From: Candidatus Woesearchaeota archaeon | Lineage (GTDB): Archaea > Nanobdellota > Nanobdellia > Woesearchaeales > UBA11576 | Length of the DNA stretch: 64,000 nucleotides | Direction of reading: 5' to 3' | NCBI GenBank assembly: GCA_018668595.1 | Contig: JABJCP010000009.1 | Span: 62,735 to 126,734, forward strand | In this document: positions 34,266 through 59,702 of the stretch, one piece after another | Layout of the letters: each line of letters begins with the position of its first letter | Position numbering within the stretch: the first letter of the stretch is position 1 | Made by a program: the position numbers and the translations under genes | The notes under the pieces: model-generated | Seen by the model: the letters and a program-made list of their open reading frames with translations, nothing else | Told to the model about the DNA's origin: nothing | Database searches by the model: none

Positions 34266-34293
34266 GTTAAACATTAAGTTAAGGTTTTTTTAA

Positions 34294-45077: not shown

Positions 45078-45506
45078 ATGTTAAGGGATAAAGAGGCAGT
45101 GTTGCTTAGACATTTGAGACAGGATTCAAGGAAAAGTTTGGCTAAGATTAGCAAAGAAACTAATATTCCTCTTTCTACTTTGTGTGATAATCTGAAAAAA
45201 TTAGAATCAGGAGTTATTCAAAAGCATGCTTCATTGCTTGACTTTTCAAAGTTGGGTTTTAATTTTAAAGCAACATTTGTAATAAGTACTAATAAAAAAA
45301 AAGAGTTAAGAGATTTTTTGACTCTTCACCCTCAAGTTAATTCTTTATCAACTTTAATTAATAATTATGATTTTTATGCAGAGTGTGTTTTTCGCGATCT
45401 AAAAGATATGGAATCTTTCAAAGATAAATTGGATTGTTTTGAAATTAAAGAACTGGAAGAAAATTTAATAATTGAAGAATTCAAAAAAGAAGGATTTTTC
45501 ATTTAA
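45078..45506 (+). CDS. Lrp/AsnC-family transcriptional regulator
   Basis: The HTH reads LRHLRQDSRKSLAKISKETNIPLSTLCDNLKKLE. Confidence 0.5.
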   Translation: MLRDKEAVLLRHLRQDSRKSLAKISKETNIPLSTLCDNLKKLESGVIQKHASLLDFSKLGFNFKATFVISTNKKKELRDFLTLHPQVNSLSTLINNYDFYAECVFRDLKDMESFKDKLDCFEIKELEENLIIEEFKKEGFFI

Positions 45507-46525: not shown

Positions 46526-47221
46526 TTGTATTCTATGATGTCTAACAAAATACTTAACAAACTAAAAACTGAACCAATCATTCAAAGAGCGGCAGATCCT
46601 ATTTTATCTAATTCAGTTCAAGTTATTAGAAAGTCTAACTCTCCTATTTTATTTGAAAACAAGAAACAAGATATTGTAGATATAGTGGATGAATTTTACA
46701 ATTCATTAAGTGTTTGTATGAGTCAAGATTCTGCTATCGAAACAAAAGTAATTCTTGAGAAAAAACATAATATTGCATTAAGATTAGACTTTGATTCTAA
46801 GGGGATATATACTGGTAAAGTATCTGTTGTTGAATCTGCAAGTCTTCATCAAGGTCATATAAAATACTTAATGAGTGATAAACAGTATGATCATTTTCTT
46901 ATCACAACTGATTGTTCAAGATACGGACCTCATTTAGAGGCTAGTGTAAATATGGTTTGTGAATTATTTAATCTTAATGTTAAAAAAGATCAATTTCCAT
47001 TAGTATTAAAAGATAATAGAAACAACAATGCTGCAGCAGTTCTTGGATCATATTTGGTTTTTCCTACTGATACTGGTTCTTTTAATATTTCAAATCCTAA
47101 ACGAGAAGTTTTTGGAACAGTTAAGTTAAATAAAAATTATGTCAATAAAGGAGTTTCTTTGAAAAAACCTTTGTTGTATTCTATTGTTAAAGAAATTTAT
47201 CAAGCTAATACGGGGGTATAA
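46526..47221 (+). CDS. Hypothetical protein; first member of the N-terminal-motif family (MMSNKILNKLKTEP)
   Basis: It shares the N-terminal motif with the six downstream genes. Confidence 0.4.
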   Translation: MYSMMSNKILNKLKTEPIIQRAADPILSNSVQVIRKSNSPILFENKKQDIVDIVDEFYNSLSVCMSQDSAIETKVILEKKHNIALRLDFDSKGIYTGKVSVVESASLHQGHIKYLMSDKQYDHFLITTDCSRYGPHLEASVNMVCELFNLNVKKDQFPLVLKDNRNNNAAAVLGSYLVFPTDTGSFNISNPKREVFGTVKLNKNYVNKGVSLKKPLLYSIVKEIYQANTGV

Positions 47222-47224
47222 ATA

Positions 47225-47854
47225 ATGGATCCAATTTTAAAAAGTTTAAAAAAAGGCGAAAGTTTTACAGGAGGTTATACTTCAACTACTCAACAATATA
47301 ATCCTATAGGTTCTGATTCTGAGAGTGGTTGGAAAAATTATTTGAAAAAAGGAGCTATCGCATTAGGTATTGTTGGTGTTCTAAGTATGGGTGGTTTTGG
47401 TATTTACAAAGGAGTTTCTTGGTTAACTGAAAAAAAAGATGCAGTTGAAACTATTGAAGAAATTATTGTAGCAAACCCTGATCAATTACAAAATTTAGAC
47501 GAGAAACAAGTGTTAACTGTTGTTCGTTCAGGACTAGAATTAAAACCTGAATATTCTGATATGTTTATTCAAGAAAGTATCAAAGCAGCAGAAATTTCAG
47601 GGCATAATTATAATTCAGATACTTATCTGGTAATGTTTGATGTTATAAAGCGTGAAGCAGAATTAAAACCCGAGATAATGGATCATTTTGGACCTAAAGC
47701 AAAAGATCGTCTTAATCATGGTAAAGCAAAAAAGTTTGTGAGAACTTTAGAGGATGAAGCAGATTCTGCTGCAAAAGTTGCTAAAAAGAAAATGGAAGAT
47801 ACGTGGGGATTTTTTAAGGACGGTTATGTTTTACTGCAAGAAAGATTTGAATAA
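47225..47854 (+). CDS. Hypothetical protein with N-terminal motif MDPILKSLKK and a TM segment
   Basis: It carries the N-terminal motif. A hydrophobic helix is AIALGIVGVLSMGGFGIY. Confidence 0.4.
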   Translation: MDPILKSLKKGESFTGGYTSTTQQYNPIGSDSESGWKNYLKKGAIALGIVGVLSMGGFGIYKGVSWLTEKKDAVETIEEIIVANPDQLQNLDEKQVLTVVRSGLELKPEYSDMFIQESIKAAEISGHNYNSDTYLVMFDVIKREAELKPEIMDHFGPKAKDRLNHGKAKKFVRTLEDEADSAAKVAKKKMEDTWGFFKDGYVLLQERFE

Positions 47855-47909
47855 AAAAGTTAAACAAATTAAATTAAACAAATTAAATAATTGTGGATGG
47901 TGGTTTATT

Positions 47910-48170
47910 ATGGGAATTATTAGAAAAACTTTATTTTATGTTTCAATTATTAGCATGGCATCAGGTTTTGGTTATTGTGTTGGTAAAGGTGTTGGAGATA
48001 AACAGTGTCGAGAAGAAATTCATGAAGGGTATTTCACACATCCAGACTCAGGTCAGAAATATGAACTAAATGTTGAAGAAGGAACTTTAGAAAAATTAAG
48101 TGGAGAATATGAAAAACCTAAAGATTATATTGGTGAAAAAGGCCTAAAAGAAATTTTTGAAAGTAGGTAA
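47910..48170 (+). CDS. Small membrane protein
   Basis: The internal start MGIIRKTLFYVSIISMASGF follows a GGTGG SD. The track start (47754) overlaps the upstream gene. Confidence 0.35.
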   Translation: MGIIRKTLFYVSIISMASGFGYCVGKGVGDKQCREEIHEGYFTHPDSGQKYELNVEEGTLEKLSGEYEKPKDYIGEKGLKEIFESR

Positions 48171-48242
48171 TTGAGTTGTTAAGCACAGGGATAATTAAGT
48201 AATTAATTATTGGATTTTTTATTAAAATTATTAGGTGGTATT

Positions 48243-49520
48243 ATGGCAGATGTTATTAAAAATAAATTAAAGGAAAGAACAACTTTAGATGAAGAGCTTT
48301 CAGATAATCCTTCAGGTTCTGACACTCCATCACAAAGAAAATTAAAAGACAAAGATATTTTAAATAATTTAAAAGATACGGGAGTTAATCAAGATCCTGC
48401 CATCACTCAACAATTTGTTAGAGAGAAAAGGGATTTGATAAGAAATGGTCGTAATAAAAGTGCTGCAATAAAGTCTCAGTTAAAACAACCAAGAGGAGAA
48501 AATCAACAAACAGGACAAATAGGGAATACTGCAATTCAACCTTATCAACCAACTCAATCAGTTCAACCTATTCAATCAGTTAATCCTGTTCAAGTTCAAC
48601 CTTATCAACCAACTACTGTAACCTCTCAAGATGCTCTTTTAGCAATGGGTATTGGAGAAAGTACGTCGGGAGATTTAACAAGATTAAATCAAACATTGGT
48701 TTTATTTAATAAAGGTCAAAAAGAATTAAAAGTTATTAAAAAAATTGATGATTCTCAAGTATATAGAGTCTGGCATTATGTTAAAACATTAGGTGGTACA
48801 AAAAAAGCAAAAGCAAGAATTACTCAAGTATTTAGATCTCAAAATGATAATGTTCGTCAGATGAATATGATTCTTGCAAGTATGATTGCTAGATTTGGAA
48901 AAGATGCTGCAGATATTAGCGGAACATTAGATGGTCTTATTTACAATGGTGCACAAACAATTAAAGCAAGAGATGCATATAGATCTAAATTAGCACCTAC
49001 GCTTGAATCGTATAATCAGGCAACGTCACTTCTTTCAAATTTAGATCGAGATAAAGAACCGGATAAATATTATTCTCATCTAAAAACAGTTATTGATCTT
49101 AAGAGAAACTTAAGAAAATTAGGCTATGTTGTGAGAGATTCTGAAGCTACTGACAAACACAATCAAAGAGATCTTCAAAATTTATATTTACAGGAAGATT
49201 TGTTTAGTACTTTACTTTATGGTGCTATGGAAATGGCTAAAACTACTGAGCGTTATCAACAAACTCTCGACAATAATCTTAAAGTTTGGGAAGCCACAAT
49301 TCCTTTAGCCGATGCAGTCAGAGCAGTTAGTCAAGGTCTTACGGGTTTAGTCGGATTAAATAATGATTTGAATGGTCATTATGTTAGAGCAATTACAGGC
49401 ATGCAAAATATCTTTGCATCAAACCCTGGGGCTAACGCATTAGACAGTACTAATGTTCAGCTTCAGCAACTTGTCGAGGGAATTAACACTCAAAGATATC
49501 TTGCTAGTGGTCAGGATTAA
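48243..49520 (+). CDS. Hypothetical protein with N-terminal motif MADVIKNKLK and a Q/P-rich linker (QPYQPTQSVQPIQSVNPVQVQPYQP)
   Basis: It carries the N-terminal motif. A GGTGG SD precedes ATG 48243. Confidence 0.4.
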   Translation: MADVIKNKLKERTTLDEELSDNPSGSDTPSQRKLKDKDILNNLKDTGVNQDPAITQQFVREKRDLIRNGRNKSAAIKSQLKQPRGENQQTGQIGNTAIQPYQPTQSVQPIQSVNPVQVQPYQPTTVTSQDALLAMGIGESTSGDLTRLNQTLVLFNKGQKELKVIKKIDDSQVYRVWHYVKTLGGTKKAKARITQVFRSQNDNVRQMNMILASMIARFGKDAADISGTLDGLIYNGAQTIKARDAYRSKLAPTLESYNQATSLLSNLDRDKEPDKYYSHLKTVIDLKRNLRKLGYVVRDSEATDKHNQRDLQNLYLQEDLFSTLLYGAMEMAKTTERYQQTLDNNLKVWEATIPLADAVRAVSQGLTGLVGLNNDLNGHYVRAITGMQNIFASNPGANALDSTNVQLQQLVEGINTQRYLASGQD

Positions 49521-49563
49521 CTCACTAAGAATTTGATTTTTTTCATTTTGAGGATTGACTAGA

Positions 49564-50253
49564 ATGGATAAGATAAAAAACAAATTGAAACAGGATCTTG
49601 ATAAAAAAAATAGGAGACATAATAGAAAAGCAAAACGTATGTCGACCAATATTTTATCAAAATTAAAAACAACAATACCTCCTCATAGAGAAATAACTAA
49701 TAAAAGTTCAAGAAGAATTATTGATGCGCTTAAAGAACAGTATAAACAGTATAATCAAGCAATTCTTGATGTTGGAGAAATTAGGGACGAGTATCAATTG
49801 CTTGTTAATGATGAGAGTGTTAGAAATCCATTTATTGTAAGTTCTGGTCTTGTAGATATAATAAGAAATGAAACTAAAAATTTAAATTCAAATGAAAAAA
49901 AAGCAAGACGCATTTATGATTGGATTGAAAAAAACATAGAGTATGGTAAAGGATTAAAAAAATATAGTAATTCTGAAGAAGTAATTAATCAGCGTCGGGG
50001 TGTTTGTGGTGAAATGGCTTTTGTATACGTCACAATGGCAAGATGCATTGGTTTAAAGTCTAGTTATGTTAGTGTAAGAAGAGATTATAGTGGAAAAAAA
50101 GTTCATCATGCTTGTGCTGTTGTGAGAACAGAAAGAGGTAATATTTTTGTTGATCCTGCATATCACACATATGATGTGAAACACAAGGATTACGAAGTAC
50201 TTAATGATGTTGAAGTTTTAGAAAGATTTAATCAATGGAGGGGAAGAGAATAA
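49564..50253 (+). CDS. Transglutaminase-like cysteine protease domain protein with N-terminal motif MDKIKNKLKQ
   Basis: The catalytic Cys motif is RRGVCGEMAFVYVTMARCIGL. The His/Asp part is HHACAVVRTERGNIFVDPAYH. Confidence 0.55.
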   Translation: MDKIKNKLKQDLDKKNRRHNRKAKRMSTNILSKLKTTIPPHREITNKSSRRIIDALKEQYKQYNQAILDVGEIRDEYQLLVNDESVRNPFIVSSGLVDIIRNETKNLNSNEKKARRIYDWIEKNIEYGKGLKKYSNSEEVINQRRGVCGEMAFVYVTMARCIGLKSSYVSVRRDYSGKKVHHACAVVRTERGNIFVDPAYHTYDVKHKDYEVLNDVEVLERFNQWRGRE

Positions 50254-50254
50254 A

Positions 50255-50737
50255 ATGAATGATAAAATTAAAGAGCATCTAAAATATGTCAATTTCCAAA
50301 AAAATAAAGAAACATTGTCATCCTCTCTAGATAATAAAGTCGAAGTTGAAGATATTGTTGTTAAAAAAAGATCGTTAAAACCAGGATTATTATATATTCA
50401 AATTGGTCAGTATGGAACTTTTCATAGTAAAGGCAAATACGAAGCGGATAATAATTCTCATAACGGTCTCGAAGTACATGTTTCAGATGGGGTGCATGAT
50501 TATTATTTAGTTACGGGCGTTTGTGAAGAAAGTGCAAAAGAAAAAAACCAGGGTTGTCCAGGAGTTTGTAAAATTAACCTGCCTGGCGGACATTATGCGG
50601 TAGAGACATCTTATAACGGACCTTATAAAAAAAAGATAACTGTGGATGGAGATACAAAATTATATATTCACATTAAGAGCAAGCTTAGAAAAAAATCTGT
50701 AAAGAGAGTTGAGACAGGAGATAAGAAAAATGACTGA
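50255..50737 (+). CDS. Hypothetical protein with N-terminal motif MNDKIKEHLK
   Basis: A member of the N-motif family. Confidence 0.4.
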   Translation: MNDKIKEHLKYVNFQKNKETLSSSLDNKVEVEDIVVKKRSLKPGLLYIQIGQYGTFHSKGKYEADNNSHNGLEVHVSDGVHDYYLVTGVCEESAKEKNQGCPGVCKINLPGGHYAVETSYNGPYKKKITVDGDTKLYIHIKSKLRKKSVKRVETGDKKND

Positions 50738-51194
50738 TAAAATAAAAGAAAAATTAAAAAGTGAAAAACCACCAGAACCAATACCTACTTATCAAAAAAA
50801 AGATATTCAATATATCTCGACACCAATAGATAAAAAAACAGATTTAGGAAAACTTGAAGTTATGGTTTGCAAAGATTTTATGGATTGGACAGGAGATATA
50901 AAATCAAGTAAAACTGTTAGAGATTTTATGAAAAACTTTGCAAGTGTAAAACCTGGAATTGTCGTCGAGGCAAAAAGTACTCACAACGAAAAAGATGTTT
51001 ATTATTTAAACACTAGGTGGGATGGTCGTTCTAAAGTAAAAATCCCTACAGGCAATTATACAATTACTGCAATACTTGATGATAAATCTTATAGTAATCC
51101 TTCTAAGCACGCCACTGTTTACAAAGGAAAAAAAACAGAAGTAACTTTCACCATAAAAAAAGAAGACTTTCAAATCGAAAAAAAATATACCTAG
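50730..51194 (+). CDS. Hypothetical protein with N-terminal motif MTDKIKEKLK
   Basis: ATG 50730 follows a CAGGAGA SD. The track used an upstream TTG. Confidence 0.4.
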   Translation: MTDKIKEKLKSEKPPEPIPTYQKKDIQYISTPIDKKTDLGKLEVMVCKDFMDWTGDIKSSKTVRDFMKNFASVKPGIVVEAKSTHNEKDVYYLNTRWDGRSKVKIPTGNYTITAILDDKSYSNPSKHATVYKGKKTEVTFTIKKEDFQIEKKYT

Positions 51195-51197
51195 AAA

Positions 51198-51608
51198 ATG
51201 ACAGATCCAATTTTAGAAAAACTAAAAGGAAATATTATTCCTAGTGAAGAACCAGTATTAAAAGATCCTTACAAACCAAATCCTGCTAATGTAGCTGTTG
51301 AAGTAAATACTATTGAAACTAAAGTTGGAGAATTATTTAGTTTTGAAAATACAACGCCTGTACATTGCAAACAAACTTTAATTTATGAAAAAGGACTTTT
51401 CGAACTTGTTAATATTGATAAATCTCCTGTTTTAATTAATGGAGAACTTGTTTGTGGTCCTGGTCCCATCCACAAATACAATTTCAAAGCTAAACAACTT
51501 GGGAACTATTGTATAACTTGTGCTGATATCGACGGGACAAATGGTATGATATATAATTTAAATGTTTATGAAATTAATATTGCTAAAATAGATAAAAAGA
51601 GGGGTTAA
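51198..51608 (+). CDS. Hypothetical protein with N-terminal motif MTDPILEKLK
   Basis: A member of the N-motif family. Confidence 0.4.
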   Translation: MTDPILEKLKGNIIPSEEPVLKDPYKPNPANVAVEVNTIETKVGELFSFENTTPVHCKQTLIYEKGLFELVNIDKSPVLINGELVCGPGPIHKYNFKAKQLGNYCITCADIDGTNGMIYNLNVYEINIAKIDKKRG

Positions 51609-51720: not shown

Positions 51721-52770
51721 ATGGATGCATATTGTAAATATAATGGAGTTTTAAAAAAAACAATAGGCATTATTGATAATTATTATGAAAATAATAAACA
51801 ACTAGAGTCTCGAGTTAAAGAGTTAGAAAAAAAATTAGACAGAAATAATGTTGCGTTAACATCGGATCAAGATCATGCAAATCCTACTAAGGTTCATTTA
51901 TCTACTAAATTATTTTTGATTTCTGCAGTAGTAGTAGTTTTATCCGCTGGAGGGTATGTAGCACATTCTGCATATAATGAGTTTTTAGAGTCGCAAGCAT
52001 CTGAGAAAACTTTAACAGAAGAATCAATTAATTTTAATTCAACAGAATATTCAACTTGGTTTTCGCAAATAAAAAATATTTTAGAACCAACTAATCTCCA
52101 AGACGAATCTTCTTCTAAAAATAAAACTAAGATTACTCCAACCTATACTTCTGATCGACCACTGCCGGTTCTTGTTAAACCCCCTGCAAAACCACTTGCT
52201 GTTCTTGAACAAGAAAACAATACAAAACCACTTAATGTTTCTGAAAAAGAAAACCATTCTCATAAAAATAAATCAACTAATAATTATCCAAAAAAGTTTG
52301 ATAAATCAGTTATCAAACAAAAACAATCCAAGACTAAAAAAATAGTGACTTATTCTTCTAACGAAAAACACATAGAATCTCTTATTGGTAGATTCTTTAA
52401 AGATGTTGAAAACAGGAATTTCAAAGCAACTAGTGATTATTTTTCTTGTGTGAGAAAGAGAGGTGCGGATTATAATTTTCCTGAACGGTTAGTTAAACGA
52501 TTTGATAATGAAGATGAACTTTATTTTTACAAAAGAGCAATTGTGCGCAATGTCGATGAAGAACATAATAGAAATCCTTATGTTAGTGGCAAAATTTACA
52601 ATGCTAAATTAAAAGTACAATTAACATCGTCAAATGATTCTTATTATCATGAATCTCTTGGTTGGATTTTTGCAAATTGTAAAAATCAACAAGAAAAACC
52701 AAAAGAAGGAGATTGTAAATTATTGGTTTACAAAAGTTACTTGACTAATTGTCCTGAGTTTACTTTTTAA
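51721..52770 (+). CDS. Hypothetical membrane-anchored protein
   Basis: It has one TM segment (LFLISAVVVVLSAGGYVAH). Confidence 0.35.
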   Translation: MDAYCKYNGVLKKTIGIIDNYYENNKQLESRVKELEKKLDRNNVALTSDQDHANPTKVHLSTKLFLISAVVVVLSAGGYVAHSAYNEFLESQASEKTLTEESINFNSTEYSTWFSQIKNILEPTNLQDESSSKNKTKITPTYTSDRPLPVLVKPPAKPLAVLEQENNTKPLNVSEKENHSHKNKSTNNYPKKFDKSVIKQKQSKTKKIVTYSSNEKHIESLIGRFFKDVENRNFKATSDYFSCVRKRGADYNFPERLVKRFDNEDELYFYKRAIVRNVDEEHNRNPYVSGKIYNAKLKVQLTSSNDSYYHESLGWIFANCKNQQEKPKEGDCKLLVYKSYLTNCPEFTF

Positions 52771-52790: not shown

Positions 52791-54095
52791 ATGAATATTC
52801 CAAAAACAATTTTAGAGGATTTTAAACTTTGTGGAGAACCTTTTATTATTCGCTCTAATAGAATTTATACTTTAGAGTCTGCTCAAGGAGTATTTGACAA
52901 CAATGATTTTATTCAGTTTCTCGACAAAAAATATCCTTTGGAGAAATCTTTGTTAATTTCCAATTTAGAAAATCGTTATTTTTCTTTAAATGAAAAATAC
53001 ATTAATAGTTATTTGCAACACATCATTAAAAGAGATTATGTGAGTAAAGTAGAATCATCTCACGCAGCGTTGATTTCGCAGCACAATATTTATGAGCAAA
53101 ATAAATTATCTTCTGTTGAACATTTTATCAGATCGCAGGTTGTTCCACAATACGCAGAACTTGCTAAAGATTTTTTCCAGGTTAATTCAGATGTTCCTTC
53201 AAAGCCTAAAAAAATAAAAACTGTTAGTTCTGAAACATTTGATCCTGATATGTTTCGTTTTCCAGATATTTCTGATCTCTATTCAGAAAAAAGCATTCTT
53301 GAATCTGTGATGGGTTCATTTGTTAATTCAGATTTTATTTTTACTCTTGGTGGAAGATGCTATGTTTCGTCTACTTATGATAATTCTCCTTCAGAATTAG
53401 TAAAAATAAACAATAAAGTTCATTCATTAAAATATTTAAGTTCACTTAGTAATCTTGATAAGAATTATAAAACTGCAATAATCAGAAAGTTAAATTCTGT
53501 TGCAAAAAATCATGGAGAACAACTTATTCCTAAGATTCAAAAAAATTTAGATCAAATAAAAAATCTTGAATCTGCATTTGAGGTTCAAGATAAAACTGAT
53601 TTTGGTTCAATTGGTTACCAAAAAGTTAATAATGATAAATATAGAATTTACATTAATATAGTCCCTTTTATTGCTAAAATGAGGGGTAAATTTTTTCATT
53701 TTATAAAAACTAAAGTTGGAACTGATTTTTTAATTAAAAATAATTCTTTAGAAATTTTATCTGCACCTGTAGTTATTGAAAAAGAGCGCTATTATCATCC
53801 TTTTGTTAGTTCTAGTAATAGTATGTGTTATGGAGGTAATAAACGTTGGAAATTTACAGGTGTTGAGTTTTGTAAAAAGTATCATTTAGACTCAAAAGAA
53901 AATAGGCAAATTGCAGGTTATAAAGTCGCAGCAGTTTTGGCTGAAGGGTGGAAAGTTATTCATAGAGGGTATTTGAAATCAAATTCTCCAGATACTTATC
54001 ATCCCATATCTCATTTTCAAAATCGTGAAGTTTCAAAGCAAGCGGCAGATAATTTAGTAAACAGTGGTTTGAAACTTTATGTTCAGGATGAGTGA
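52791..54095 (+). CDS. E2/UBC-like protein, paralog 1, with a long N-terminal domain
   Basis: The C-terminal motif YYHPFVSSSNSMCYGG has the same H-P-x-[VI]-x5-[IM]-C spacing as the UBC active site HPNI-x5-IC. It is paralogous to 58413..59702. Confidence 0.45.
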   Translation: MNIPKTILEDFKLCGEPFIIRSNRIYTLESAQGVFDNNDFIQFLDKKYPLEKSLLISNLENRYFSLNEKYINSYLQHIIKRDYVSKVESSHAALISQHNIYEQNKLSSVEHFIRSQVVPQYAELAKDFFQVNSDVPSKPKKIKTVSSETFDPDMFRFPDISDLYSEKSILESVMGSFVNSDFIFTLGGRCYVSSTYDNSPSELVKINNKVHSLKYLSSLSNLDKNYKTAIIRKLNSVAKNHGEQLIPKIQKNLDQIKNLESAFEVQDKTDFGSIGYQKVNNDKYRIYINIVPFIAKMRGKFFHFIKTKVGTDFLIKNNSLEILSAPVVIEKERYYHPFVSSSNSMCYGGNKRWKFTGVEFCKKYHLDSKENRQIAGYKVAAVLAEGWKVIHRGYLKSNSPDTYHPISHFQNREVSKQAADNLVNSGLKLYVQDE

Positions 54096-54206
54096 GACAG
54101 TCTTATTAATCTTAATCACATCGTCGGAACTCTTTCGGTTTTTTCTACAAAACTCTTATTAAATAAATCTTCATAAAATCATTTAATAAAACAGGGGGCT
54201 AACAAA

Positions 54207-54626
54207 ATGAGCTTACTATATTTAAGATTAGACGCATCTTTTGCAGAGACTACAACTCTTGTGAAAAGAATTCCAGAATCAAAGCTTGACGAAACAATAG
54301 AGTCTCTTATTTTGTACATGTGTGATACTTCTCCAGATGTTCTTAATCCAGAACTAATAGATCATGCGAATAGTTGTTATTCTTTTAAAGAAGTTAGGTT
54401 GGCACAAAATATAGAAGATAGTATTGAAACAATTCAAGAAGACAACCCCGCATTTGTTTCGCCTTTAAAATTATATTCTCTTGTTGGGGATATTCCTGTT
54501 ATTATGGCATCTCACAAAACATTAGCAAATAAGTCTCTTGCAGAATATAAAAATAAAATCATAACAACAAAAAAATTAGATAATGAATCTTACAAAATAA
54601 TTGATTTGATATTAAAAACTGTTTAA
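54207..54626 (+). CDS. Ubl-like small protein, divergent copy with no C-terminal GG
   Basis: MSLLYLRLDASF...YMCDTSPDVLNPEL...SCYSFKEV aligns with the other small paralogs. Confidence 0.4.
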   Translation: MSLLYLRLDASFAETTTLVKRIPESKLDETIESLILYMCDTSPDVLNPELIDHANSCYSFKEVRLAQNIEDSIETIQEDNPAFVSPLKLYSLVGDIPVIMASHKTLANKSLAEYKNKIITTKKLDNESYKIIDLILKTV

Positions 54627-54638: not shown

Positions 54639-55709
54639 ATGAATGAAATTAAAAAACTTGAAACTGTAATTGGCACAGAAGATGTTAAACTTAATGAAGA
54701 ATCTGTAATTGAAGATTTATTCGAACAGACAGGTAATTTTTTTAATGATGTGTTTATTAAAAGTAGGGTTGGGCCAAATACTAAATTAAATCATAAAAAA
54801 ATATCATCAAATAAATATTCTATTTCGATAGATTTAGAAGATTATATTCTTAAGAAGAATGATAGATATTTTAAGTTTGATAAAGTGACAATTGGCTTAG
54901 ATATTTTATTTGATAAAGAGTCAATTCAATTTTTAAGAGCTACTAAAATTAAATTAGGAAAAAAATATGATCATCCTTTTGTATTTAATGATAATTCTAT
55001 TTGTTATGGGGGTGGCTTAAGGTGGAGACTTGTTGGTGTTGATTTTGGAAAAAAATATTCTATTAAAACAGATGAAGAAAAAAATAATGCTGCTTGGAAA
55101 ACCTGTCTTGTTTTAACAGAAGGTGCTAAGGTGCTACACGAAGTACATGGTGATCAAGTCATACCTGTTAATAATTTAATGAATAGATTTTCTGATAGAG
55201 AAATATGTAAAAACAAAGCAGAATTATCTGGTTTAATTATTTATGGTGCTGAATCATCAACTAAAAAAACTCAGGAGTTACCTAACTCTAGTAATTTATA
55301 TATTAGATTGGACGGAGCTTTTGCAAACAAAGTTATTCTTGCAAAACGAGTTCCTGAAACAATTTTATCAGAGCCGTTGGATGAGGTTATTAGGTATATG
55401 TGTAATCCGACTTCGGATGAATTGAATGAAGAGCTCGAGGATAATCCTAGTAGTTGTTATACTGAACAAGAAGTTAGCACTGCGAAATTATTTCAAGAAG
55501 CATTTGATGAAGGAATTAATTCTCCGAATAAATCATTCGAGGTTCAGGCAATTAGTGTCGACGGAAATTCGCTGATTTATCTTGGCAGAGATGCTGATTT
55601 GAAAACTGTAACTCTCGATTCTAAACGTAGTGAAATTCTTATGGAAGAACATATCGATGAAGGAAATTATAATTTGATTGATCTTAAAGGAACTTATGTT
55701 AGTTGTTAA
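54639..55709 (+). CDS. Fusion protein with an E2/UBC-like core followed by a C-terminal Ubl-like domain
   Basis: The N-terminal part carries KYDHPFVFNDNSICYGGGLRWRLVGVDFGKKY. The C-terminal part (NLYIRLDGAFANKVILAKRVPET...) is about 80% identical to the free Ubl paralogs and ends ...DLKGTYVSC. Confidence 0.45.
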   Translation: MNEIKKLETVIGTEDVKLNEESVIEDLFEQTGNFFNDVFIKSRVGPNTKLNHKKISSNKYSISIDLEDYILKKNDRYFKFDKVTIGLDILFDKESIQFLRATKIKLGKKYDHPFVFNDNSICYGGGLRWRLVGVDFGKKYSIKTDEEKNNAAWKTCLVLTEGAKVLHEVHGDQVIPVNNLMNRFSDREICKNKAELSGLIIYGAESSTKKTQELPNSSNLYIRLDGAFANKVILAKRVPETILSEPLDEVIRYMCNPTSDELNEELEDNPSSCYTEQEVSTAKLFQEAFDEGINSPNKSFEVQAISVDGNSLIYLGRDADLKTVTLDSKRSEILMEEHIDEGNYNLIDLKGTYVSC

Positions 55710-55713
55710 TAAA

Positions 55714-56643
55714 ATGACTCGCGCTGCTATTTTAATCGGATCGTTGGAAAGTTTTCAAAAAGAGGAGTTTGCAGATCCTATGAAAGAATCTTTTGCAAAG
55801 ATTGGACTCGATTCAATTATTGTACCCTTAAATAAAATAGAAGAGTTAAATAAAGTAGATATTGTTTATACTCTGCCTCATAGTATTCAGGTTGATCTTT
55901 CGTTCTTAGATGAAAAAAATATTCCTATTATTAATTCGCATAGGTCTCATTCGCTTTCTAAAAATAAAATGGAAAGTAGTGATGTATTTATCAAAAATAA
56001 TATTCCAACTCCGGATACTATAACAACAGATTCTCAAGATGAATTAATTAATTTCATAAATAAACACAATAAAATTATTTTGAAGCAACCTGATATTTGT
56101 GCAGGCTATGGGCACATGATTGTTGAAAAAATCAATAACAATTATTTTGCATGGAATAATGATTCAAAAGGCGAGTTTGATTTTTCAAATCCTAATTTTG
56201 TTAAAGCAAATAAACGAGTTTTTGCACAGCCGTATTATGCACAAGATTTTATTTCTGATTTTAATCCTGATAATATTGTGTCTGTTTATAGAGCATATGT
56301 TATCGGAAATAATGTTCCTATGGCAACTGCAAGAGTTGGTAAAGATCAGCCCATTGTTAATGTTGCAAGGGGTGCACATTATGAATTTGTTACTCCTGAT
56401 AAAAAAATGAAAGAAATTGCATTAAAGACTGCAGATAGTATTGGTTTTGAAGTTGGAGTTGTTGATTTATTAAAAGATAAAAATCAAAATTATTTTGTTA
56501 TTGAATGCGATTGCGATGGTCTTACATTAGTTGTTTGTAGAAAGTTTAGAAAATTGAAAGAGTTTGAAGATAAATATGATTTTGATCAGCACATTGGCAG
56601 AAGATTAATTGAAATTGTAAATGGAGAATCTTATAGAACTTGA
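55714..56643 (+). CDS. ATP-grasp ligase (RimK-like)
   Basis: ILKQPDICAGYGHMIV fits vvKP..GS.G.GV. YRAYVIGNNVPMATARVGKDQPIVNVARGA fits the RimK D.Rv.vvG...a..R......tN...Gg pattern. EVGVVDLL...YFVIECD is also present. Confidence 0.55.
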   Translation: MTRAAILIGSLESFQKEEFADPMKESFAKIGLDSIIVPLNKIEELNKVDIVYTLPHSIQVDLSFLDEKNIPIINSHRSHSLSKNKMESSDVFIKNNIPTPDTITTDSQDELINFINKHNKIILKQPDICAGYGHMIVEKINNNYFAWNNDSKGEFDFSNPNFVKANKRVFAQPYYAQDFISDFNPDNIVSVYRAYVIGNNVPMATARVGKDQPIVNVARGAHYEFVTPDKKMKEIALKTADSIGFEVGVVDLLKDKNQNYFVIECDCDGLTLVVCRKFRKLKEFEDKYDFDQHIGRRLIEIVNGESYRT

Positions 56644-56650: not shown

Positions 56651-56779
56651 CTCGTCGGAACTCTTCCGCTTTTTAACATACAACCCTTATTAAATTCAAT
56701 ATTGCGTTTATATTTGTTTAGTGGGAGAACTTAAATTAAAAAGTAAAAATACATCTAAACTAGATTGAGATATACAAAA
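56651..56779 (+). promoter_or_regulatory. Conserved ~130-bp promoter/5'-leader module (copy 1) upstream of a Ubl gene, with three palindromes
   Basis: It contains CGGAActcTTCCG and TTTAGtgggagaaCtTAAA (imperfect in this copy), then CATCTAaacTAGATt immediately 5' of the start codon. Confidence 0.45.
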
Positions 56780-57205
56780 ATGAAAAATTTATACATTAGA
56801 TTAGACGGAGCTTTTGCAGATAAAGGCGTTCTTGCAAAAAAAGTTAGTGAGAATTTACTTTTAGAAACATTAGATACTGTTATTATGTGTATGTGTGACT
56901 CTACTCCTGATGAGTTTAATCATGAATTAGCTGAGAATCCTGGTAGTTGTTATACTGCGCAGGAAGTTAGAAAAGCCGAACTTATTGAAGAAGCACTAGA
57001 CGATGGACTTAATTATTGTATTACTGTTAAGGTTGATGCGCTTAGTGTAGGCGGAAATTCTTTAGTAGAACTTGGAAGAAATGGTGAACTAAGAACTGCT
57101 ACAATTGCCGATAAGAAAAATGAAATTCTTAGAAAACTTGATCTTGATGGTAAACAATATTATATTGTAGATCTTAAGATGTCTTATTTATGCCCTGGGG
57201 GTTAG
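56780..57205 (+). CDS. Ubl-like small protein ending in a free Gly-Gly (…YLCPGG*)
   Basis: It begins MKNLYIRLDGAFADKGVLAKKV and ends at stop TAG directly after GG. The start at 56780 was chosen by alignment with the paralogs; the track used an upstream TTG. Confidence 0.5.
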   Translation: MKNLYIRLDGAFADKGVLAKKVSENLLLETLDTVIMCMCDSTPDEFNHELAENPGSCYTAQEVRKAELIEEALDDGLNYCITVKVDALSVGGNSLVELGRNGELRTATIADKKNEILRKLDLDGKQYYIVDLKMSYLCPGG

Positions 57206-57216: not shown

Positions 57217-57350
57217 TCCTCGGAATCCTTCCGAATTTTAACACGTAATCATTATTAAATTCAATATTGATTTTATACTTATTTAGGGGGAAAACCTAAA
57301 TTATATGTAAAAAATAAAAATACATCTAAACTAGATGGATGCATATGAAA
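57217..57350 (+). promoter_or_regulatory. Promoter/5'-leader module, copy 2
   Basis: It contains CGGAAtccTTCCG, TTTAGGgggaaaaCCTAAA and CATCTAaacTAGATG (57323..57337). Confidence 0.45.
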
Positions 57351-57803
57351 ATGGAAAATTTATACATTAGATTAGACGGAACATTTGCAGATAAAGTTGT
57401 TTTTGCAAAACGAGTTTCTGAAACAATTTTATCAGAGCCGTTGGATGAGGTTATTAGGTATATGTGTGATTCTTCTCCTGATGATTTAAATAAAGAAATT
57501 GAAATAGATTATTGTTTTGATATGAATCAAGATTACATCAAAGACAGTGGTTATACAGCGCAGGAAGTTAATAATGCAAATATTATTGAACATTTTTTGA
57601 ATCAAGATATTAGATCGGACAATATTTGTGCAGAAATTCATGCTATTAGTAAGGATAAAAATTCGCTTGTTTATTTAGGTAAAACAAACAAGCTTAAAAA
57701 TGTTAATCTTGCTTCAAAAAAAAAATATTTGTTACAAAAAGAAAAAATAGGTGGCGAAAATTATTTCATTATTGACCTTAAGTTTAATTTGCTTTGCATG
57801 TAG
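57351..57803 (+). CDS. Ubl-like small protein with a divergent C-terminus (…LLCM*)
   Basis: It begins MENLYIRLDGTFADKVVFAKRVSETILSEPLDEVIRYMCD. The start was aligned to the paralog starts. Confidence 0.45.
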   Translation: MENLYIRLDGTFADKVVFAKRVSETILSEPLDEVIRYMCDSSPDDLNKEIEIDYCFDMNQDYIKDSGYTAQEVNNANIIEHFLNQDIRSDNICAEIHAISKDKNSLVYLGKTNKLKNVNLASKKKYLLQKEKIGGENYFIIDLKFNLLCM

Positions 57804-57842
57804 ATTGCAAGGTTTAGTATACTGCAGTTTTATTACTCTCTC

Positions 57843-57976
57843 CTCGGAACTCTTCCGCTTTTTAACACACAATCCTTATTAAATTCAATATAACATTTAT
57901 ACTTATTTAGGGGGAGAACCTAAATTATATGTAAAATAAGTAAAAATACATCTAGATTAGATGGAGGTATATAAAA
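57843..57976 (+). promoter_or_regulatory. Promoter/5'-leader module, copy 3
   Basis: It contains CGGAActcTTCCG, TTTAGGgggagaaCCTAAA and CATCTAgatTAGATG (57949..57963), followed by a GGAGG SD. Confidence 0.45.
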
Positions 57977-58411
57977 ATGGGAAATCTATACGTTAGATTG
58001 GATGGAGCTTTTGCAAACAAAGTTGTTCTTGCAAAAAAAGTTCCTGATACAAAGTTATCAGAACCGCTCGAAGATGTTATTAGGTATATGTGTGATCCAA
58101 CTCCGGACGCATTAAATGAAGCGCTTGCAGATAATCCTGGTAGTTGTTATACTGCGCAAGAAGTTAGCAATGCATCTTTGATTGAAGAAGCTTTAGAAGA
58201 TGGGCTTAATAGTGAGAATTCTTCGTTTGAAGTTCAAGCAGTTAGTCTTGACGGTAATTCAATGGTTTATCTTGGCAAGGATAATGAATTAAGAAGTGCA
58301 AATATAGCATCTAAGCAAAACGATATTCTTAGAGACGAAAATTTTGATGGAGAGGTTTACAAGCTTGTAGATCTTAAAGGAGTTTATGTTGGAGTTGGTG
58401 GTAAACTTTAA
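57977..58411 (+). CDS. Ubl-like small protein ending GG-KL (…VGVGGKL*), a precursor-like C-terminus
   Basis: It begins MGNLYVRLDGAFANKVVLAKKVPDTKLSEPLEDVIRYMCDPTPD. A GGAGG SD lies upstream. Confidence 0.5.
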   Translation: MGNLYVRLDGAFANKVVLAKKVPDTKLSEPLEDVIRYMCDPTPDALNEALADNPGSCYTAQEVSNASLIEEALEDGLNSENSSFEVQAVSLDGNSMVYLGKDNELRSANIASKQNDILRDENFDGEVYKLVDLKGVYVGVGGKL

Positions 58412-58412: not shown

Positions 58413-59702
58413 ATGCAAAATTTAAATACTTTTTTAAATAGTTTTAAGCTCGCTGGAGAACCTTTTTTTATTAGAGGTGACAGGCTCTATACTTTAGAGC
58501 TTTCAAATGGTTTTTGTAACAGCGAGCAGTTTTTATCTTTAATGGAGCGAAAATATCCTCTAGAAAGATCAGTTGATATTAGCAATCTGGAGTATACCTC
58601 TTTTCTCAAACAAAAAAATTCAATTTTAAATTTTATGGAAAAACACATTAGAAATAATTTTATCAGTAAACTTGAAAGTTCAGAAAAAAAGGTAATTCGT
58701 GCAAGTGGTTTGTATGAACAAAATAGACTTTCTTCTATTGAACGATTTATTCGTGAAAAAATAATTCCTGAATATGCTGAAGTTGCAAAGCGTTTTTTAG
58801 ATGATAAATCAATAAAAACACCTAACCTTATAAAAAAAGTTTCAAAGGTTAAAGCAGAATCTTTTGATGTTAATAGTTTTGTTTGGCCAGGTATTGAAGA
58901 CTTAAAATCAGATATTAGTAGGTTGGATAAAATAATTGAAAAAGAAGGCGTTTTAATTGTTGGTGGTCGCTGTTATTCTGCATCTCGTTCAAAATCAAAA
59001 TCTTTATCTGATTATGTTAAAGCTGGAAGTTCTTTTTATAGTTTAGATTATATGTGTTGTGTTGATGAATTGGATAAAATTTACAAACAAGAATTAGTTA
59101 AGTTTTTTCAAGATACTTCAAATAAGCAGGGTAATATTTTAGTTCCTTTAATTAAGCAAAATAACCAAAAATTATCTAACTTAACAGATGCTGTTAATAA
59201 ATCTGTTGATCAAAAATTTGGAAATATTGGTTATAAGTGTGTTAGTGAACATAAGTATCAAATTTTTCTTAAGTTTAATCCGTTTATTATAAAAAAAGAT
59301 GATCAATACTATAAATTTCCTGAATTAAAATTAGGAACTGATTTAATTATCAAGAACAATATGCTTGAAATTGTAGCAGCACCTCAAGTTTTGGGTTCTA
59401 AACCATATCTTCATCCTTTTGTTTGGTCTGATAAACGCATTTGTTATTCTGGTGATACTAAACGTTGGCATTTTATAGGTATCGATTTTGGAAAAAAATA
59501 TCCTATAAATTCTGAACAAAATCAAAATGATGTTGCTTGGAAAGTCGCATTAGCTCTTTCAGAGGGTTTTAAGGTTATTCATAAAGGATATATTGGAAAT
59601 AAAATTATTCCTGTTAATAACTTACATTCTAGTTGTAAGTCTCGCAAAATTTCTTATTCAGAAATATCGCCCTCAAAATTAAAGGTGTATAACAATGATT
59701 AA
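58413..59702 (+). CDS. E2/UBC-like protein, paralog 2
   Basis: It carries YLHPFVWSDKRICYSGDTKRWHFIGIDFGKKY. The N-terminus MQNLNTFLNSFKLAGEPFFIRGDRLYTLE aligns with 52791 (MNIPKTILEDFKLCGEPFIIRSNRIYTLE). Confidence 0.45.
   Translation: MQNLNTFLNSFKLAGEPFFIRGDRLYTLELSNGFCNSEQFLSLMERKYPLERSVDISNLEYTSFLKQKNSILNFMEKHIRNNFISKLESSEKKVIRASGLYEQNRLSSIERFIREKIIPEYAEVAKRFLDDKSIKTPNLIKKVSKVKAESFDVNSFVWPGIEDLKSDISRLDKIIEKEGVLIVGGRCYSASRSKSKSLSDYVKAGSSFYSLDYMCCVDELDKIYKQELVKFFQDTSNKQGNILVPLIKQNNQKLSNLTDAVNKSVDQKFGNIGYKCVSEHKYQIFLKFNPFIIKKDDQYYKFPELKLGTDLIIKNNMLEIVAAPQVLGSKPYLHPFVWSDKRICYSGDTKRWHFIGIDFGKKYPINSEQNQNDVAWKVALALSEGFKVIHKGYIGNKIIPVNNLHSSCKSRKISYSEISPSKLKVYNND

What the first reader, a model, noticed from the sequence alone, without database searches (positions are those of the whole stretch)
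46526..51608. Seven consecutive genes whose products share an N-terminal decapeptide M-x-D-[KP]-I-[KL]-x-K-L-K
The shared N-termini are MMSNKILNKLK, MDPILKSLKK, MADVIKNKLK, MDKIKNKLKQ, MNDKIKEHLK, MTDKIKEKLK and MTDPILEKLK. The downstream sequences are otherwise unrelated: a transglutaminase-like protease, a Q/P-rich 426-aa protein and ~140-aa small proteins. A conserved, probably amphipathic, N-terminal tag on heterogeneous cargo suggests a dedicated targeting or secretion/packaging signal, or a recognition tag for the adjacent Ubl machinery. It is not a Sec, Tat or class-III signal.
Basis: seen in the sequence. Interest (0 to 1): 0.7.

Follow-up and report, generated by a model that had tools for sequence, protein, structure and literature searches.

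The report
Shared N-terminal tag in archaeal ubiquitin-like cluster
Seven neighbouring, otherwise unrelated genes of an uncultured marine archaeon all begin with the same ten-residue lysine-rich peptide, and this tag is kept in distant relatives next to a ubiquitin-like protein-modification system, so it is probably that system's address label, although what reads it is unknown.

Summary
Seven + strand genes (46538-51608) start with M-x-D-x-I-[KL]-x-K-L-K. The motif occurs nowhere else in the 64 kb, and the bodies share no other similarity. It is not a recent DNA duplication: the invariant Ile and Leu use several different codons. An eighth tagged gene lies 71 nt past the window end, so tagged genes flank a block of one E1, three E2-like proteins, five beta-grasp Ubl-like proteins (diglycine tails on two), two JAB peptidases and an ATP-grasp ligase.

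Three metagenomic loci whose E2-like proteins are only 21-35% identical keep the tag. It sits on orthologues of g1, g3 and the transglutaminase-like enzyme, and on a new cargo (a VWA protein). In the g3 family the tag is the best-conserved segment, ahead of an unalignable 25-135 residue linker.

The decapeptide alone is not special: it also starts UvrC and other unrelated proteins elsewhere. The array and its conservation are what is unusual.

My best reading is a portable docking motif that marks client proteins for the adjacent Ubl machinery. No reader has been identified, so this mechanism is inferred. I found no support for secretion or packaging. This is a new variant of a known kind; interest 0.66.

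The parts
45078..45506 (+). Lrp/AsnC-type regulator upstream of the array. A conserved neighbour.
   Evidence: Weak Pfam AsnC_trans_reg and HTH_24 matches, both below the curated cut-offs. AsnC-type genes also precede the array in L113 and L117.
46538..47221 (+). g1, 227 aa, unknown fold. Tag MSNKILNKLKTE at 46538-46573, plus two degenerate copies (DPILSNSV, SPILFENK).
   Evidence: The L113 orthologue (33% identity) starts MNDVIKEKLKNE. No Pfam, NCBIfam or PDB match.
47225..47854 (+). g2, 209 aa. Tag MDPILKSLKKGE (47225-47260), then a Gly/Ser/Thr-rich linker, one hydrophobic segment at about residues 43-66, and a C-terminal domain.
   Evidence: The membrane segment is read from the sequence. 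No orthologue was seen in related loci.
47826..48170 (+). Small untagged membrane-protein gene interposed between g2 and g3.
   Evidence: Called as a 114-aa gene on identical public contigs. L113 has a weak positional homologue (pairwise E = 0.003).
48243..49520 (+). g3, 425 aa. Tag MADVIKNKLKER (48243-48278), a Q/P-rich linker of about 125 residues, then a conserved C-terminal domain of about 290 residues.
   Evidence: Orthologues in L113 (MSDLIKDKLKLE) and L117 (MGDPIKEKLKSE). The tag is invariant at 8 of its first 11 columns, although the proteins are only 26-35% identical and the linkers cannot be aligned. No database homologues were found by word-index search.
49564..50253 (+). g4, 229 aa, transglutaminase-like Cys-His-Asp enzyme. 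Two tags: MDKIKNKLKQ (49564-49593) and MSTNILSKLKTT (49639-49674).
   Evidence: Pfam Transglut_core 3e-14. C148, H182 and D197 are invariant in four orthologues, and motif-like copies occur in the basic N-terminal region of all four.
50255..50737 (+). g5, 160 aa, no family match. Tag MNDKIKEHLKYV.
50730..51194 (+). g6, 154 aa. Tag MTDKIKEKLKSE, a Pro-rich linker, then a small body with a weak PEGA-like match.
   Evidence: The L113 orthologue is 41% identical over the body but lacks the tag and linker, so the tag is modular.
51198..51608 (+). g7, 136 aa. Tag MTDPILEKLKGN, a Pro-rich linker, then a Cys-containing body.
   Evidence: The identical protein is present on 20 public contigs.
51721..52770 (+). 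349-aa untagged protein with a hydrophobic segment, between the array and the first E2-like gene.
   Evidence: No family match.
52791..54095 (+). E2-like protein a, 434 aa, with the HPFV...C active-site motif.
54207..54626 (+). Ubl-like paralogue, 139 aa, without a C-terminal GG.
54639..55709 (+). Fusion of an E2-like domain and a Ubl-like domain, 356 aa.
55696..56643 (+). RimK-type ATP-grasp ligase.
   Evidence: Pfam RimK 1.9e-12. Also present in L115.
56780..57205 (+). Ubl-like protein ending ...CPGG.
57345..57803 (+). Ubl-like paralogue without a terminal GG.
57977..58411 (+). Ubl-like protein ending ...GVGGKL. Modelled as a beta-grasp fold.
58413..59702 (+). E2-like protein c, 429 aa.
59695..60969 (+). 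JAB/JAMM peptidase, 424 aa.
   Evidence: Pfam Prok-JAB 2.4e-4, below the curated cut-off. The motif HSH-x7-S-xx-D can be read in the translation.
60962..62509 (+). E1-like adenylating enzyme, 515 aa.
   Evidence: Pfam ThiF 2.6e-59.
62523..64000 (+). Second JAB-like protein (507 aa, runs off the window end). It is followed at about 64071, outside the window, by an eighth tagged gene (324 aa, MSKNILSKLKQK).
   Evidence: L123 holds the same genome, contig JABJMF010000112.1. No Pfam match. The JAMM motif HSH-x7-S-xx-D is read by eye.

Best explanation
The decapeptide is a portable N-terminal short linear motif with consensus M-x-D-x-I-[KL]-x-K-L-[KR]-x-E. Ile and Leu are invariant and the rest is basic. 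A non-conserved flexible linker follows it.

The motif marks a variable set of proteins encoded in one archaeal gene cluster as clients of that cluster's protein-modification machinery. That machinery comprises an E1, three E2-like proteins, beta-grasp Ubl-like proteins with diglycine tails, two JAB peptidases, a RimK-type ATP-grasp ligase and a transglutaminase-like enzyme.

Proposed mechanism, all inferred:
1. The basic Ile/Leu face of the tag docks non-covalently on the acidic Ubl-like proteins, or on the E2-like~Ubl intermediate.
2. Docking places the tag's own lysines next to the E2-like active-site cysteine, so the client becomes Ubl-modified without a separate E3. This would resemble SIM-directed SUMOylation.
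3. The JAB peptidases process the Ubl tails and reverse the modification.

Shown: the motif, its selection at the peptide level, its conservation across divergent loci, its portability between cargoes, and its association with the Ubl block.
Inferred: the binding partner, the conjugation step and the acceptor lysines.
For: 1. Specificity. The motif is found only at these N-termini in the window. A scan of 596 Gb of genomes found no other array of this kind.
2. Selection acts on the peptide. Ile is encoded by ATA, ATT and ATC, and Leu by CTA, TTA, TTG and CTT. Among codon pairs with the same amino acid, 37% differ. Internal copies in the transglutaminase-like proteins (residues 7-41) argue against a start-codon or mRNA effect.
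3. Conservation.
   - In the g3 family the tag is invariant at 8 of 11 columns, although the proteins are 26-35% identical and the linker cannot be aligned.
   - The locus-search tool itself chose the tag as the family's most conserved stretch.
   - An HMM trained only on the window finds the L113 and L117 tags as the top independent hits.
4. Portability. The tag is on a VWA protein in L115 and is absent from the g6 orthologue in L113.
5. Association with the Ubl block. Tagged genes flank it on both sides in this genome and lie directly upstream of E2-like/Ubl genes in L113, L115 and L117.
6. The block is a plausible conjugation system.
   - E1: ThiF 2.6e-59.
   - Ubl: beta-grasp fold, with GG-type tails in two of the five window paralogues and in most relatives.
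   - JAB: JAMM motif.
7. Lysine is preferred over arginine in the tag's basic positions: 30:2, against 255:145 in the protein bodies (p = 3e-4).
8. Charge complementarity. The Ubl-like proteins are the acidic components (pI 4.3-5.1), whereas the tags are basic.
9. None of 150 E2-like homologues carries the tag, which fits their being readers rather than clients.
Against: - No binding or conjugation was tested. The tools do not allow complex prediction.
- Only three independent related loci were recovered, all short metagenomic contigs.
- The one related locus with full flanks that lacks tags (L119) still has Ubl, E2-like and JAB genes but lacks the transglutaminase-like and g3 genes.
- The last basic position is Arg in one orthologue (MRDKIIERLRK), so that lysine is not an obligatory acceptor.
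- The Lys-over-Arg preference is only marginal against other N-termini of the same genome (86:25, p = 0.04), and the tag instances are not independent.
- The conserved core components g3 and the transglutaminase-like enzyme are themselves tagged, which is unusual for mere substrates.
Confidence: 0.4

Rival explanations
1. The tag is read by the transglutaminase-like enzyme or by g3, not by the Ubl cascade. There are three forms of this idea. The tag could be a leader that the Cys-His-Asp enzyme removes, as with leader-peptide processing. It could supply lysines for cross-linking. Or it could be the handle by which clients assemble on a scaffold built from g3 and the transglutaminase-like enzyme.
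For: - The transglutaminase-like gene is present in all four tag-bearing loci, and g3 in all three where the upstream region is visible.
- Both are absent from the only fully flanked tag-free locus, L119, which still has Ubl, E2-like and JAB genes.
- The catalytic triad is invariant.
- The transglutaminase-like proteins carry two tag copies in every orthologue.
- In this genome g3 has a Gln-rich linker, which could act as a glutamine donor.
Against: - The Gln-rich linker is not conserved in g3 orthologues.
- The phyletic contrast rests on a single negative locus.
- No conserved cleavage motif follows the tag; position 11 is variable.
- The g6 orthologue functions without a tag.
- Both proposed readers carry the tag themselves.
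Confidence: 0.25
2. The tag is a non-classical export, vesicle or compartment-loading signal. It would be comparable to microcompartment encapsulation peptides, or (from my own knowledge) to the phage T4 capsid-targeting sequence.
For: - The architecture of short terminal helix, flexible linker and heterogeneous cargo encoded in one operon matches encapsulation peptides (papers listed).
- Several cargo types (VWA, a weakly PEGA-like domain, transglutaminase-like) are common outside cells.
- Small membrane proteins are part of the cluster.
Against: - Pfam, NCBIfam, PADLOC and PHROGs find no shell protein, translocase, secretion ATPase or phage structural gene in any of the loci.
- No relatives occur in viral contigs, phages or plasmids.
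- The tag is much shorter and more polar than known encapsulation helices.
- The conserved neighbours are enzymes expected to act in the cytoplasm.
Confidence: 0.12
3. The tag has no dedicated function. It would reflect copying of gene 5' ends, or a general preference for A-rich, lysine-rich codons after the start codon in an AT-rich genome.
For: - The same decapeptide starts unrelated proteins in many organisms, including UvrC of Clostridia and Bacilli, a 63-aa Streptomyces protein and ribosomal protein S10, so it is an easily reached sequence.
- N-termini in this genome are lysine-rich in general (K:R 86:25).
Against: - The tag is conserved on orthologues at 26-35% overall identity, while the adjacent linker is free to vary.
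- The invariant Ile and Leu are encoded by several different codons.
- Internal copies lie far from the start codon.
- None of the other 53 genes in the window has the motif.
- The tag occurs on a different cargo in L115.
Confidence: 0.03

Closest known systems
Encapsulation peptides of bacterial microcompartments (Pdu, Eut and others)
   Same: A short terminal helix followed by a poorly conserved linker, attached to functionally unrelated proteins encoded in one operon and read by a shared partner (abstracts of PMC11463388, PMC7221423 and PMC11157265, listed).
   Different: Encapsulation peptides are about 15-20 residues long and clearly amphipathic, and they need BMC shell proteins. Here the core is 8-10 residues, polar and basic, and no shell genes are present. 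The neighbours are ubiquitin-like conjugation enzymes.
SIM-directed SUMOylation and eukaryotic degron architecture (recognition motif, nearby lysines, disordered segment). From my own knowledge, not tested here.
   Same: A short hydrophobic and charged motif next to lysines and a flexible region, beside an E1/E2/Ubl cascade. This would explain E3-independent substrate choice.
   Different: There is no sequence relationship to SIM, UIM or known degrons. The binding partner and the modification are entirely inferred. The tag is N-terminal and is encoded on operon partners rather than on proteome-wide targets.
Prokaryotic ubiquitination-like operons (the Bil/6d type of Iyer et al. 2006; Bub pathways; the Caldiarchaeum E1/E2/RING system)
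   Same: E1-like, E2-like, Ubl and JAB-type genes are clustered together (PMC1779556; PMC11601596; PMC5654768). Ubl proteins with extra N-terminal domains are also known (PMC11601603).
   Different: - None of these descriptions mentions a shared tag on neighbouring genes, or a transglutaminase-like or ATP-grasp partner.
- This E2-like family is about 420 aa long, keeps the classical His-Pro-x motif and has an invariant Cys. Bub enzymes work through oxyester intermediates, and the 6d E2-like proteins lack the classical His.
- No RING E3 is present.
Phage T4 capsid-targeting sequence and double-glycine or RiPP leader peptides (from my own knowledge)
   Same: An N-terminal peptide of about 10-20 residues is shared by unrelated or variable cargoes of one locus. 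In those systems a dedicated protease removes it, and here a papain-like-fold enzyme is encoded in the array.
   Different: There is no phage context and no ABC-transporter/C39 peptidase. No Gly-Gly or other conserved cleavage site follows the tag. The cargoes are folded proteins of 136-425 aa, not short core peptides.

Membership tests
Sec / Tat / class III (pilin-type) signal peptides | A hydrophobic core of 7-15 or more residues directly after a basic N-region; a twin-arginine motif for Tat; a [KR]G/A cleavage site followed by a hydrophobic stretch for class III. | tested here: not met
   Polar, Pro-, Ser- or Glu-rich linkers follow the tags. There is no hydrophobic stretch within 40 residues of the start and no RR motif (sequences). 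Mean hydrophobicity of the tags is zero or negative.
Microcompartment encapsulation peptide | BMC shell proteins (BMC-H, BMC-T or BMC-P domains) in the same locus. | tested here: not met
   Pfam scans of the proteins from 36 to 62.5 kb, and of downstream proteins, give no BMC or EutN hits.
Microcompartment encapsulation peptide | A terminal amphipathic helix of about 15-20 residues joined to the cargo by a flexible linker. | tested here: inconclusive
   A linker is present and variable. The conserved core is only 8-10 residues, with a moderate hydrophobic moment of 0.36-0.67. No structure prediction of the tag was possible.
Phage capsid-targeting sequence or phage-encoded cargo | Phage structural and prohead-protease genes in the neighbourhood. 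| tested here: not met
   PHROGs gave only one insignificant hit. No relatives were found in viral contigs or phage genomes.
RiPP or bacteriocin leader peptide | A short precursor (leader plus core peptide) with a conserved cleavage motif and a dedicated peptidase/transporter or a core-modifying ATP-grasp enzyme. | tested here: not met
   The cargoes are 136-425 aa and include a recognised transglutaminase-core enzyme. No conserved residue follows the tag. No transporter is present. An ATP-grasp enzyme is present, but the tag has no conserved acidic or hydroxyl residue pair for cross-linking.
Ubiquitin-like conjugation system (for the adjacent block) | An E1-type adenylating enzyme. | tested here: met
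   Pfam ThiF 2.6e-59 for 60959-62509.
Ubiquitin-like conjugation system (for the adjacent block) | A beta-grasp modifier with a C-terminal diglycine, exposed or followed by a short tail. | tested here: met
Ubiquitin-like conjugation system (for the adjacent block) | An E2 (UBC) fold with a catalytic Cys about 10 residues after an HPN-like motif. | tested here: inconclusive
   - Invariant Cys and near-invariant HPFV 10 residues upstream, in 48-57 sequences.
- Profile hits to PDB E2 enzymes fall exactly on the active site, but at E = 0.2-1.
- Foldseek found nothing.
Ubiquitin-like conjugation system (for the adjacent block) | A JAB/JAMM metallopeptidase (H-x-H-x7-S-xx-D). | tested here: met
   The motif HSHGDLGVFVSGTD can be read in 59695-60969. 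Pfam Prok-JAB 2.4e-4 is below the curated cut-off. A second copy of the motif is in the 507-aa protein.
Ubiquitin-like conjugation system (for the adjacent block) | Covalent transfer of the modifier to lysines of target proteins, here the tags. | not testable with these tools
   This needs biochemistry or mass spectrometry. Only association and lysine enrichment are available.
Transglutaminase-like superfamily (g4) | A transglutaminase core with a Cys-His-Asp triad. | tested here: met
   Pfam PF01841 3e-14. C148, H182 and D197 are invariant in four orthologues.

The most novel reading that the evidence does not exclude
The tag is a genetically encoded substrate or recruitment motif of a previously undescribed archaeal ubiquitin-like conjugation system. 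The system would modify or assemble a defined set of its own operon-encoded proteins, choosing them through a ten-residue N-terminal motif instead of an E3 ligase. That would be the first motif-defined substrate set for a prokaryotic Ubl cascade.
Probability: 0.3. Interest if true: 0.85.

Novelty: new variant of a known kind. Interest (0 to 1): 0.66.

Why it matters
For most prokaryotic ubiquitin-like systems the targets, and the way they are chosen, are unknown. Here a conjugation-type cluster (E1, E2-like, Ubl, JAB) comes with eight proteins that carry one conserved, portable decapeptide. This gives a direct experimental handle: fuse the tag to a reporter and ask what binds, modifies or cleaves it. 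If the tag proves to be the substrate or recruitment code, it would show E3-independent, motif-directed target selection in an archaeal lineage. It would also define a new E2-like family (208 members at E <= 0.001) together with its partner enzymes. Even on the more modest reading, it is a clear example of a short linear motif conserved across deep divergence in prokaryotes, and it could be reused as a small targeting tag.

Tried and rejected
- Tag profile search of the 5.8-billion protein database. Not possible: the E-value cap is 10, and the 12-column HMM gives only 11-27 bits on its own members.
- Word-index homologue searches. Those with g3 and with the E2-like paralogues returned only self-hits. 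A third, with 48 E2-like sequences, returned only two usable proteins.
- Locus scans of reference genomes and JGI metagenomes with the window's E2-like alignment found nothing. The 48-sequence alignment was too divergent for the scanner. A 12-sequence subset gave seven loci.
- The strict DNA pattern for MxDKIKxK[LF]K in 596 Gb of genomes gave 107 scattered stretches. They show the decapeptide is a common way to start a protein, with no second array.
- PADLOC, PHROGs and NCBIfam gave nothing for the seven proteins or their neighbours. PDB sequence searches with g1 and g3 gave nothing.
- Viral contigs, phage genomes and plasmids hold no relatives of the E2-like, g3 or transglutaminase-like families.
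- Strain polymorphism cannot be used to test selection, because five public contigs are 100% identical over the array.
- Sigma-70 promoter and terminator scans were uninformative: counts equalled the shuffle expectation, and this is an archaeal genome.
- Foldseek of the full-length E2-like model against the PDB gave only fragment hits.
As a result g3, g4 and the tag itself could not be modelled with an alignment, and no complex prediction was possible.
- Rejected: a transglutaminase glutamine-donor role for the Q/P-rich linker of g3, because the linker is not Gln-rich in orthologues.
- Rejected: graspetide-like cross-linking of the tag, because it has no conserved acidic or hydroxyl partner residues.

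Full report
**1. What is in the sequence**

The window has about 29% G+C. It contains no tRNA genes and no Rfam matches. NCBI labels identical proteins as 'Candidatus Woesearchaeota archaeon'. The same DNA is found on 20 public contigs, the longest 636-677 kb.

Between 46538 and 51608 seven + strand genes begin as follows:
- g1 MSNKILNKLK
- g2 MDPILKSLKK
- g3 MADVIKNKLK
- g4 MDKIKNKLKQ
- g5 MNDKIKEHLK
- g6 MTDKIKEKLK
- g7 MTDPILEKLK

Five of the seven starts have Shine-Dalgarno-like sequences upstream, and public gene calls use the same starts.

The genes are packed tightly. Gaps between them range from an 8-nt overlap to 43 nt. One small untagged membrane-protein gene (47826-48170) sits between g2 and g3. 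g4 carries a second copy of the motif at residue 26 (MSTNILSKLK). g1 has two degenerate extra copies by eye.

**2. Is it more than chance?**

- A regular expression for the motif, run on all six frames of the 64 kb, hits only these seven N-termini plus one stray in a non-coding frame.
- A 12-column HMM of the tags scores 11-19 bits on them and at most 4.2 bits anywhere else in the window.
- None of the other 53 gene starts resembles the motif.
- Apart from the tag, the seven proteins show no convincing pairwise similarity.

The decapeptide on its own is not exotic. An exact scan of 596 Gb of reference genomes for MxDKIKxK[LF]K found 108 matches in 107 stretches, in scattered taxa. Many of these are genuine N-termini of unrelated families: UvrC of Clostridia and Bacilli, a 63-residue Streptomyces protein, ribosomal protein S10, and a pair of tandem paralogues in an Oscillospiraceae genome. 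None of those loci has two or more tagged ORFs with unrelated bodies. What is unusual is therefore the array, not the peptide.

**3. Not a recent DNA duplication**

The invariant Ile is encoded by ATA, ATT or ATC. The invariant Leu is encoded by CTA, TTA, TTG or CTT. Among tag codon pairs that specify the same amino acid, 37% use different codons. Selection therefore acts on the peptide. Five public contigs are 100% identical over the array, so population data cannot add to this.

**4. Conservation elsewhere**

Word-index searches found no relatives of g3 or of the large downstream proteins. An exhaustive HMMER search with those downstream proteins gave a different picture. It found a family of 208 proteins at E <= 0.001, mostly about 420 residues long. 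The family has an invariant Cys and a near-invariant HPFV motif 10 residues upstream of it.

Two family members could be traced to contigs, and a metagenome scan added seven loci. Three loci are informative:

- **L113** (11 kb). It contains AsnC regulators, then a g1 orthologue starting MNDVIKEKLK and a small membrane ORF. These are followed by a g3 orthologue starting MSDLIKDKLK and a transglutaminase-like orthologue starting MRDKIIERLRK. A g6 orthologue comes next; it is 41% identical over the body but lacks the tag and linker. The locus ends with an E2-like gene and a Ubl-like gene.
- **L117** (4.7 kb). It contains an AsnC regulator and a g3 orthologue starting MGDPIKEKLK. The transglutaminase-like protein has two internal copies (DTVIKKELK, NQIIRSLKK). 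E2-like, Ubl-like and a second E2-like gene follow.
- **L115** (7 kb). The transglutaminase-like protein has degenerate copies. A VWA-domain protein starts MDDIKAKLK. A membrane protein, an ATP-grasp gene, two Ubl-like genes, an E2-like gene and a JAB gene follow.

The E2-like proteins of these loci are only 21-35% identical to those of the window.

In the g3 family, 8 of the first 11 columns are invariant. The linker that follows varies from about 25 to about 135 residues and cannot be aligned. The locus-search tool itself chose M[ASG]D[VLP]IK[NDE]K as the family's most conserved stretch.

An HMM trained only on the window recovers the L113 and L117 tags as the best hits in independent DNA. 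The scores are 16.0, 15.0, 7.1 and 5.7 bits, against noise of at most 4.2.

Across 13 instances the core is D(11)-x-I(13)-[K8 L4 I1]-x-K(10)-L(13)-[K12 R1].

**5. The neighbourhood**

Downstream of the array lie:
- a 349-residue protein;
- three E2-like proteins (52791, 54639, 58413);
- five Ubl-like paralogues, one of them fused to an E2-like domain;
- a RimK-type ATP-grasp enzyme;
- a JAB protein with an exact JAMM motif;
- an E1 (ThiF 2.6e-59).

Extending the sequence through another contig of the same genome (L123) shows what lies beyond the window. After the E1 come a second JAB-like protein, then an eighth tagged gene (324 residues, MSKNILSKLKQK, starting about 71 nt past the window end), then an 879-residue protein with a C-terminal hydrophobic tail. 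Tagged genes therefore flank the Ubl block on both sides.

None of 150 E2-like homologues carries the tag.

**6. How it probably works**

Three things are shown:
- The tag is a short N-terminal motif under strong purifying selection, followed by an unconstrained linker.
- It is portable between cargoes: gained on a VWA protein, absent from one g6 orthologue.
- It is always found in the same gene cluster as the E2-like/Ubl machinery.

The role I infer is a docking or recognition peptide that makes these proteins clients of the cluster's machinery. The specific model I favour (confidence 0.4) has two steps. First, the basic Ile/Leu face binds the acidic Ubl-like proteins or the charged E2-like~Ubl intermediate. 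Second, the tag's own lysines are then modified.

Weak support for this model:
- Lysine is favoured over arginine in the tag. The ratio is 30:2, against 255:145 in the protein bodies (p = 3e-4). Against other N-termini of the genome it is only p = 0.04.
- The Ubl-like proteins are the acidic components of the cluster, with pI 4.3-5.1.

Evidence against this model:
- The one tag-free relative with full flanks (L119) keeps Ubl, E2-like and JAB genes but lacks the transglutaminase-like and g3 genes.
- One orthologue has Arg at the last basic position.

Export or packaging (confidence 0.12) has no positive evidence. No translocase, shell or phage genes were found. No relatives occur in viral, phage or plasmid collections.

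A non-functional origin (confidence 0.03) is contradicted by sections 3 and 4, and by the internal copies far from the start codon.

**7. Comparison with what is known**

In architecture, the closest analogues are microcompartment encapsulation peptides (papers), the phage T4 capsid-targeting sequence and leader peptides. The last two are from my own knowledge. The defining partners of each of these are absent here.

In neighbourhood, the closest systems are the prokaryotic E1/E2/Ubl/JAB operons (PMC1779556; PMC11601596; PMC11601603; PMC5654768). None of the passages and abstracts I read describes a shared tag on adjacent genes, or the transglutaminase-like and ATP-grasp partners. This E2-like family also differs from the Bub and 6d types in keeping both the classical His and the Cys. 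I found no paper describing this motif, but the literature search was limited.

**8. Verdict**

The interpretation as a dedicated tag linked to the Ubl machinery is supported by conservation and association. The secretion or packaging reading is not supported. The mechanism is unproven.

Caveats:
- Only three related loci were recovered, all short metagenomic contigs.
- Gene starts are inferred.
- The taxonomic label is NCBI's own.
- No structure prediction of the tag or of any complex was possible.

Noticed in passing
window 12490-26455: Five large tandem genes (738-1096 aa), each with a C-terminal Ser/Thr protein-kinase domain and one with HEAT repeats. A sixth kinase with a weak DnaJ match lies at 40360-41472. 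This is an unusual density of kinases for a small archaeal genome.
   Followed up: no
window 2823-3962 (- strand): A response-regulator receiver domain fused to a GGDEF diguanylate cyclase domain (Pfam 1e-32), in a genome that NCBI labels as Woesearchaeota. GGDEF is mainly a bacterial domain, so this may be a horizontal acquisition or a binning problem.
   Followed up: no
window 54121-54164, 56652-56695, 57217-57260, 57841-57884: A conserved intergenic element of about 44 nt, consisting of the hairpin CGGAACTCTTCCG, a T-run and TTATTAAAT. It lies roughly 85 nt upstream of each free-standing Ubl-like gene. It looks like a terminator plus an archaeal TATA-like promoter module that was duplicated along with the Ubl paralogues.
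   Followed up: partly
window 54207-54626, 57345-57803 and 54639-55709: Three of the five Ubl-like paralogues lack a C-terminal diglycine, and one of these is fused to an E2-like domain. They may be non-conjugatable adaptor or decoy versions.
   Followed up: partly
L114 (JGI 3300025317) 249-5449 versus L113 8976-10325: The same 449-aa E2-like protein (100% identical) and its Ubl neighbour are preceded in L114 by a 1266-aa Laminin_G_3 protein, in DNA of higher G+C (0.46 against 0.35), instead of the tagged array. This could be an assembly chimera or a recombination breakpoint directly upstream of the E2-like gene.
   Followed up: no
L021, L034, L043, L046, L058, L062, L076, L078, L085, L092 and others: UvrC proteins of many Clostridia and Bacilli start with MNDKIKEKLKxLTTKPGVY, the same decapeptide as g6. 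Streptomyces and Actinacidiphila have a conserved 63-aa protein starting M[FL]DKIKAKLKGHESQ. These look like convergent lysine-rich N-termini.
   Followed up: partly
L045 2045-2783 and L039 4634: Tandem paralogues of about 140 aa in an Oscillospiraceae genome, starting MNDKIKEKLKNKDFLKKIIGLETKEE. The start resembles Nif11-type leader peptides, judged from memory.
   Followed up: no
window 52791-54095 (AF2 model me23dbf91e13e): Before the UBC-like domain, the N-terminal 265 residues of the E2-like protein are predicted as two repeats of a beta-meander followed by a long helix (strands 18-55 with helices 56-129; strands 183-218 with helix 219-265). This could be a substrate-binding module. No structural match was found.
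   Followed up: partly
window 32660-36118: A cluster of DUF134, a tandem NifX/dinitrogenase-cofactor-like protein and two MinD-type ATPases with 4Fe-4S domains.
   Followed up: no
L119 9465-12017: A minimal version of the system (Ubl ending GGYR, an E2-like gene, then a gene in the position that JAB occupies in L115 and L118, with no Pfam match) on a 180-kb contig that also encodes what looks by eye like archaeal GatE. There is no transglutaminase-like gene, g3, ATP-grasp gene or tagged gene within 10 kb.
   Followed up: partly
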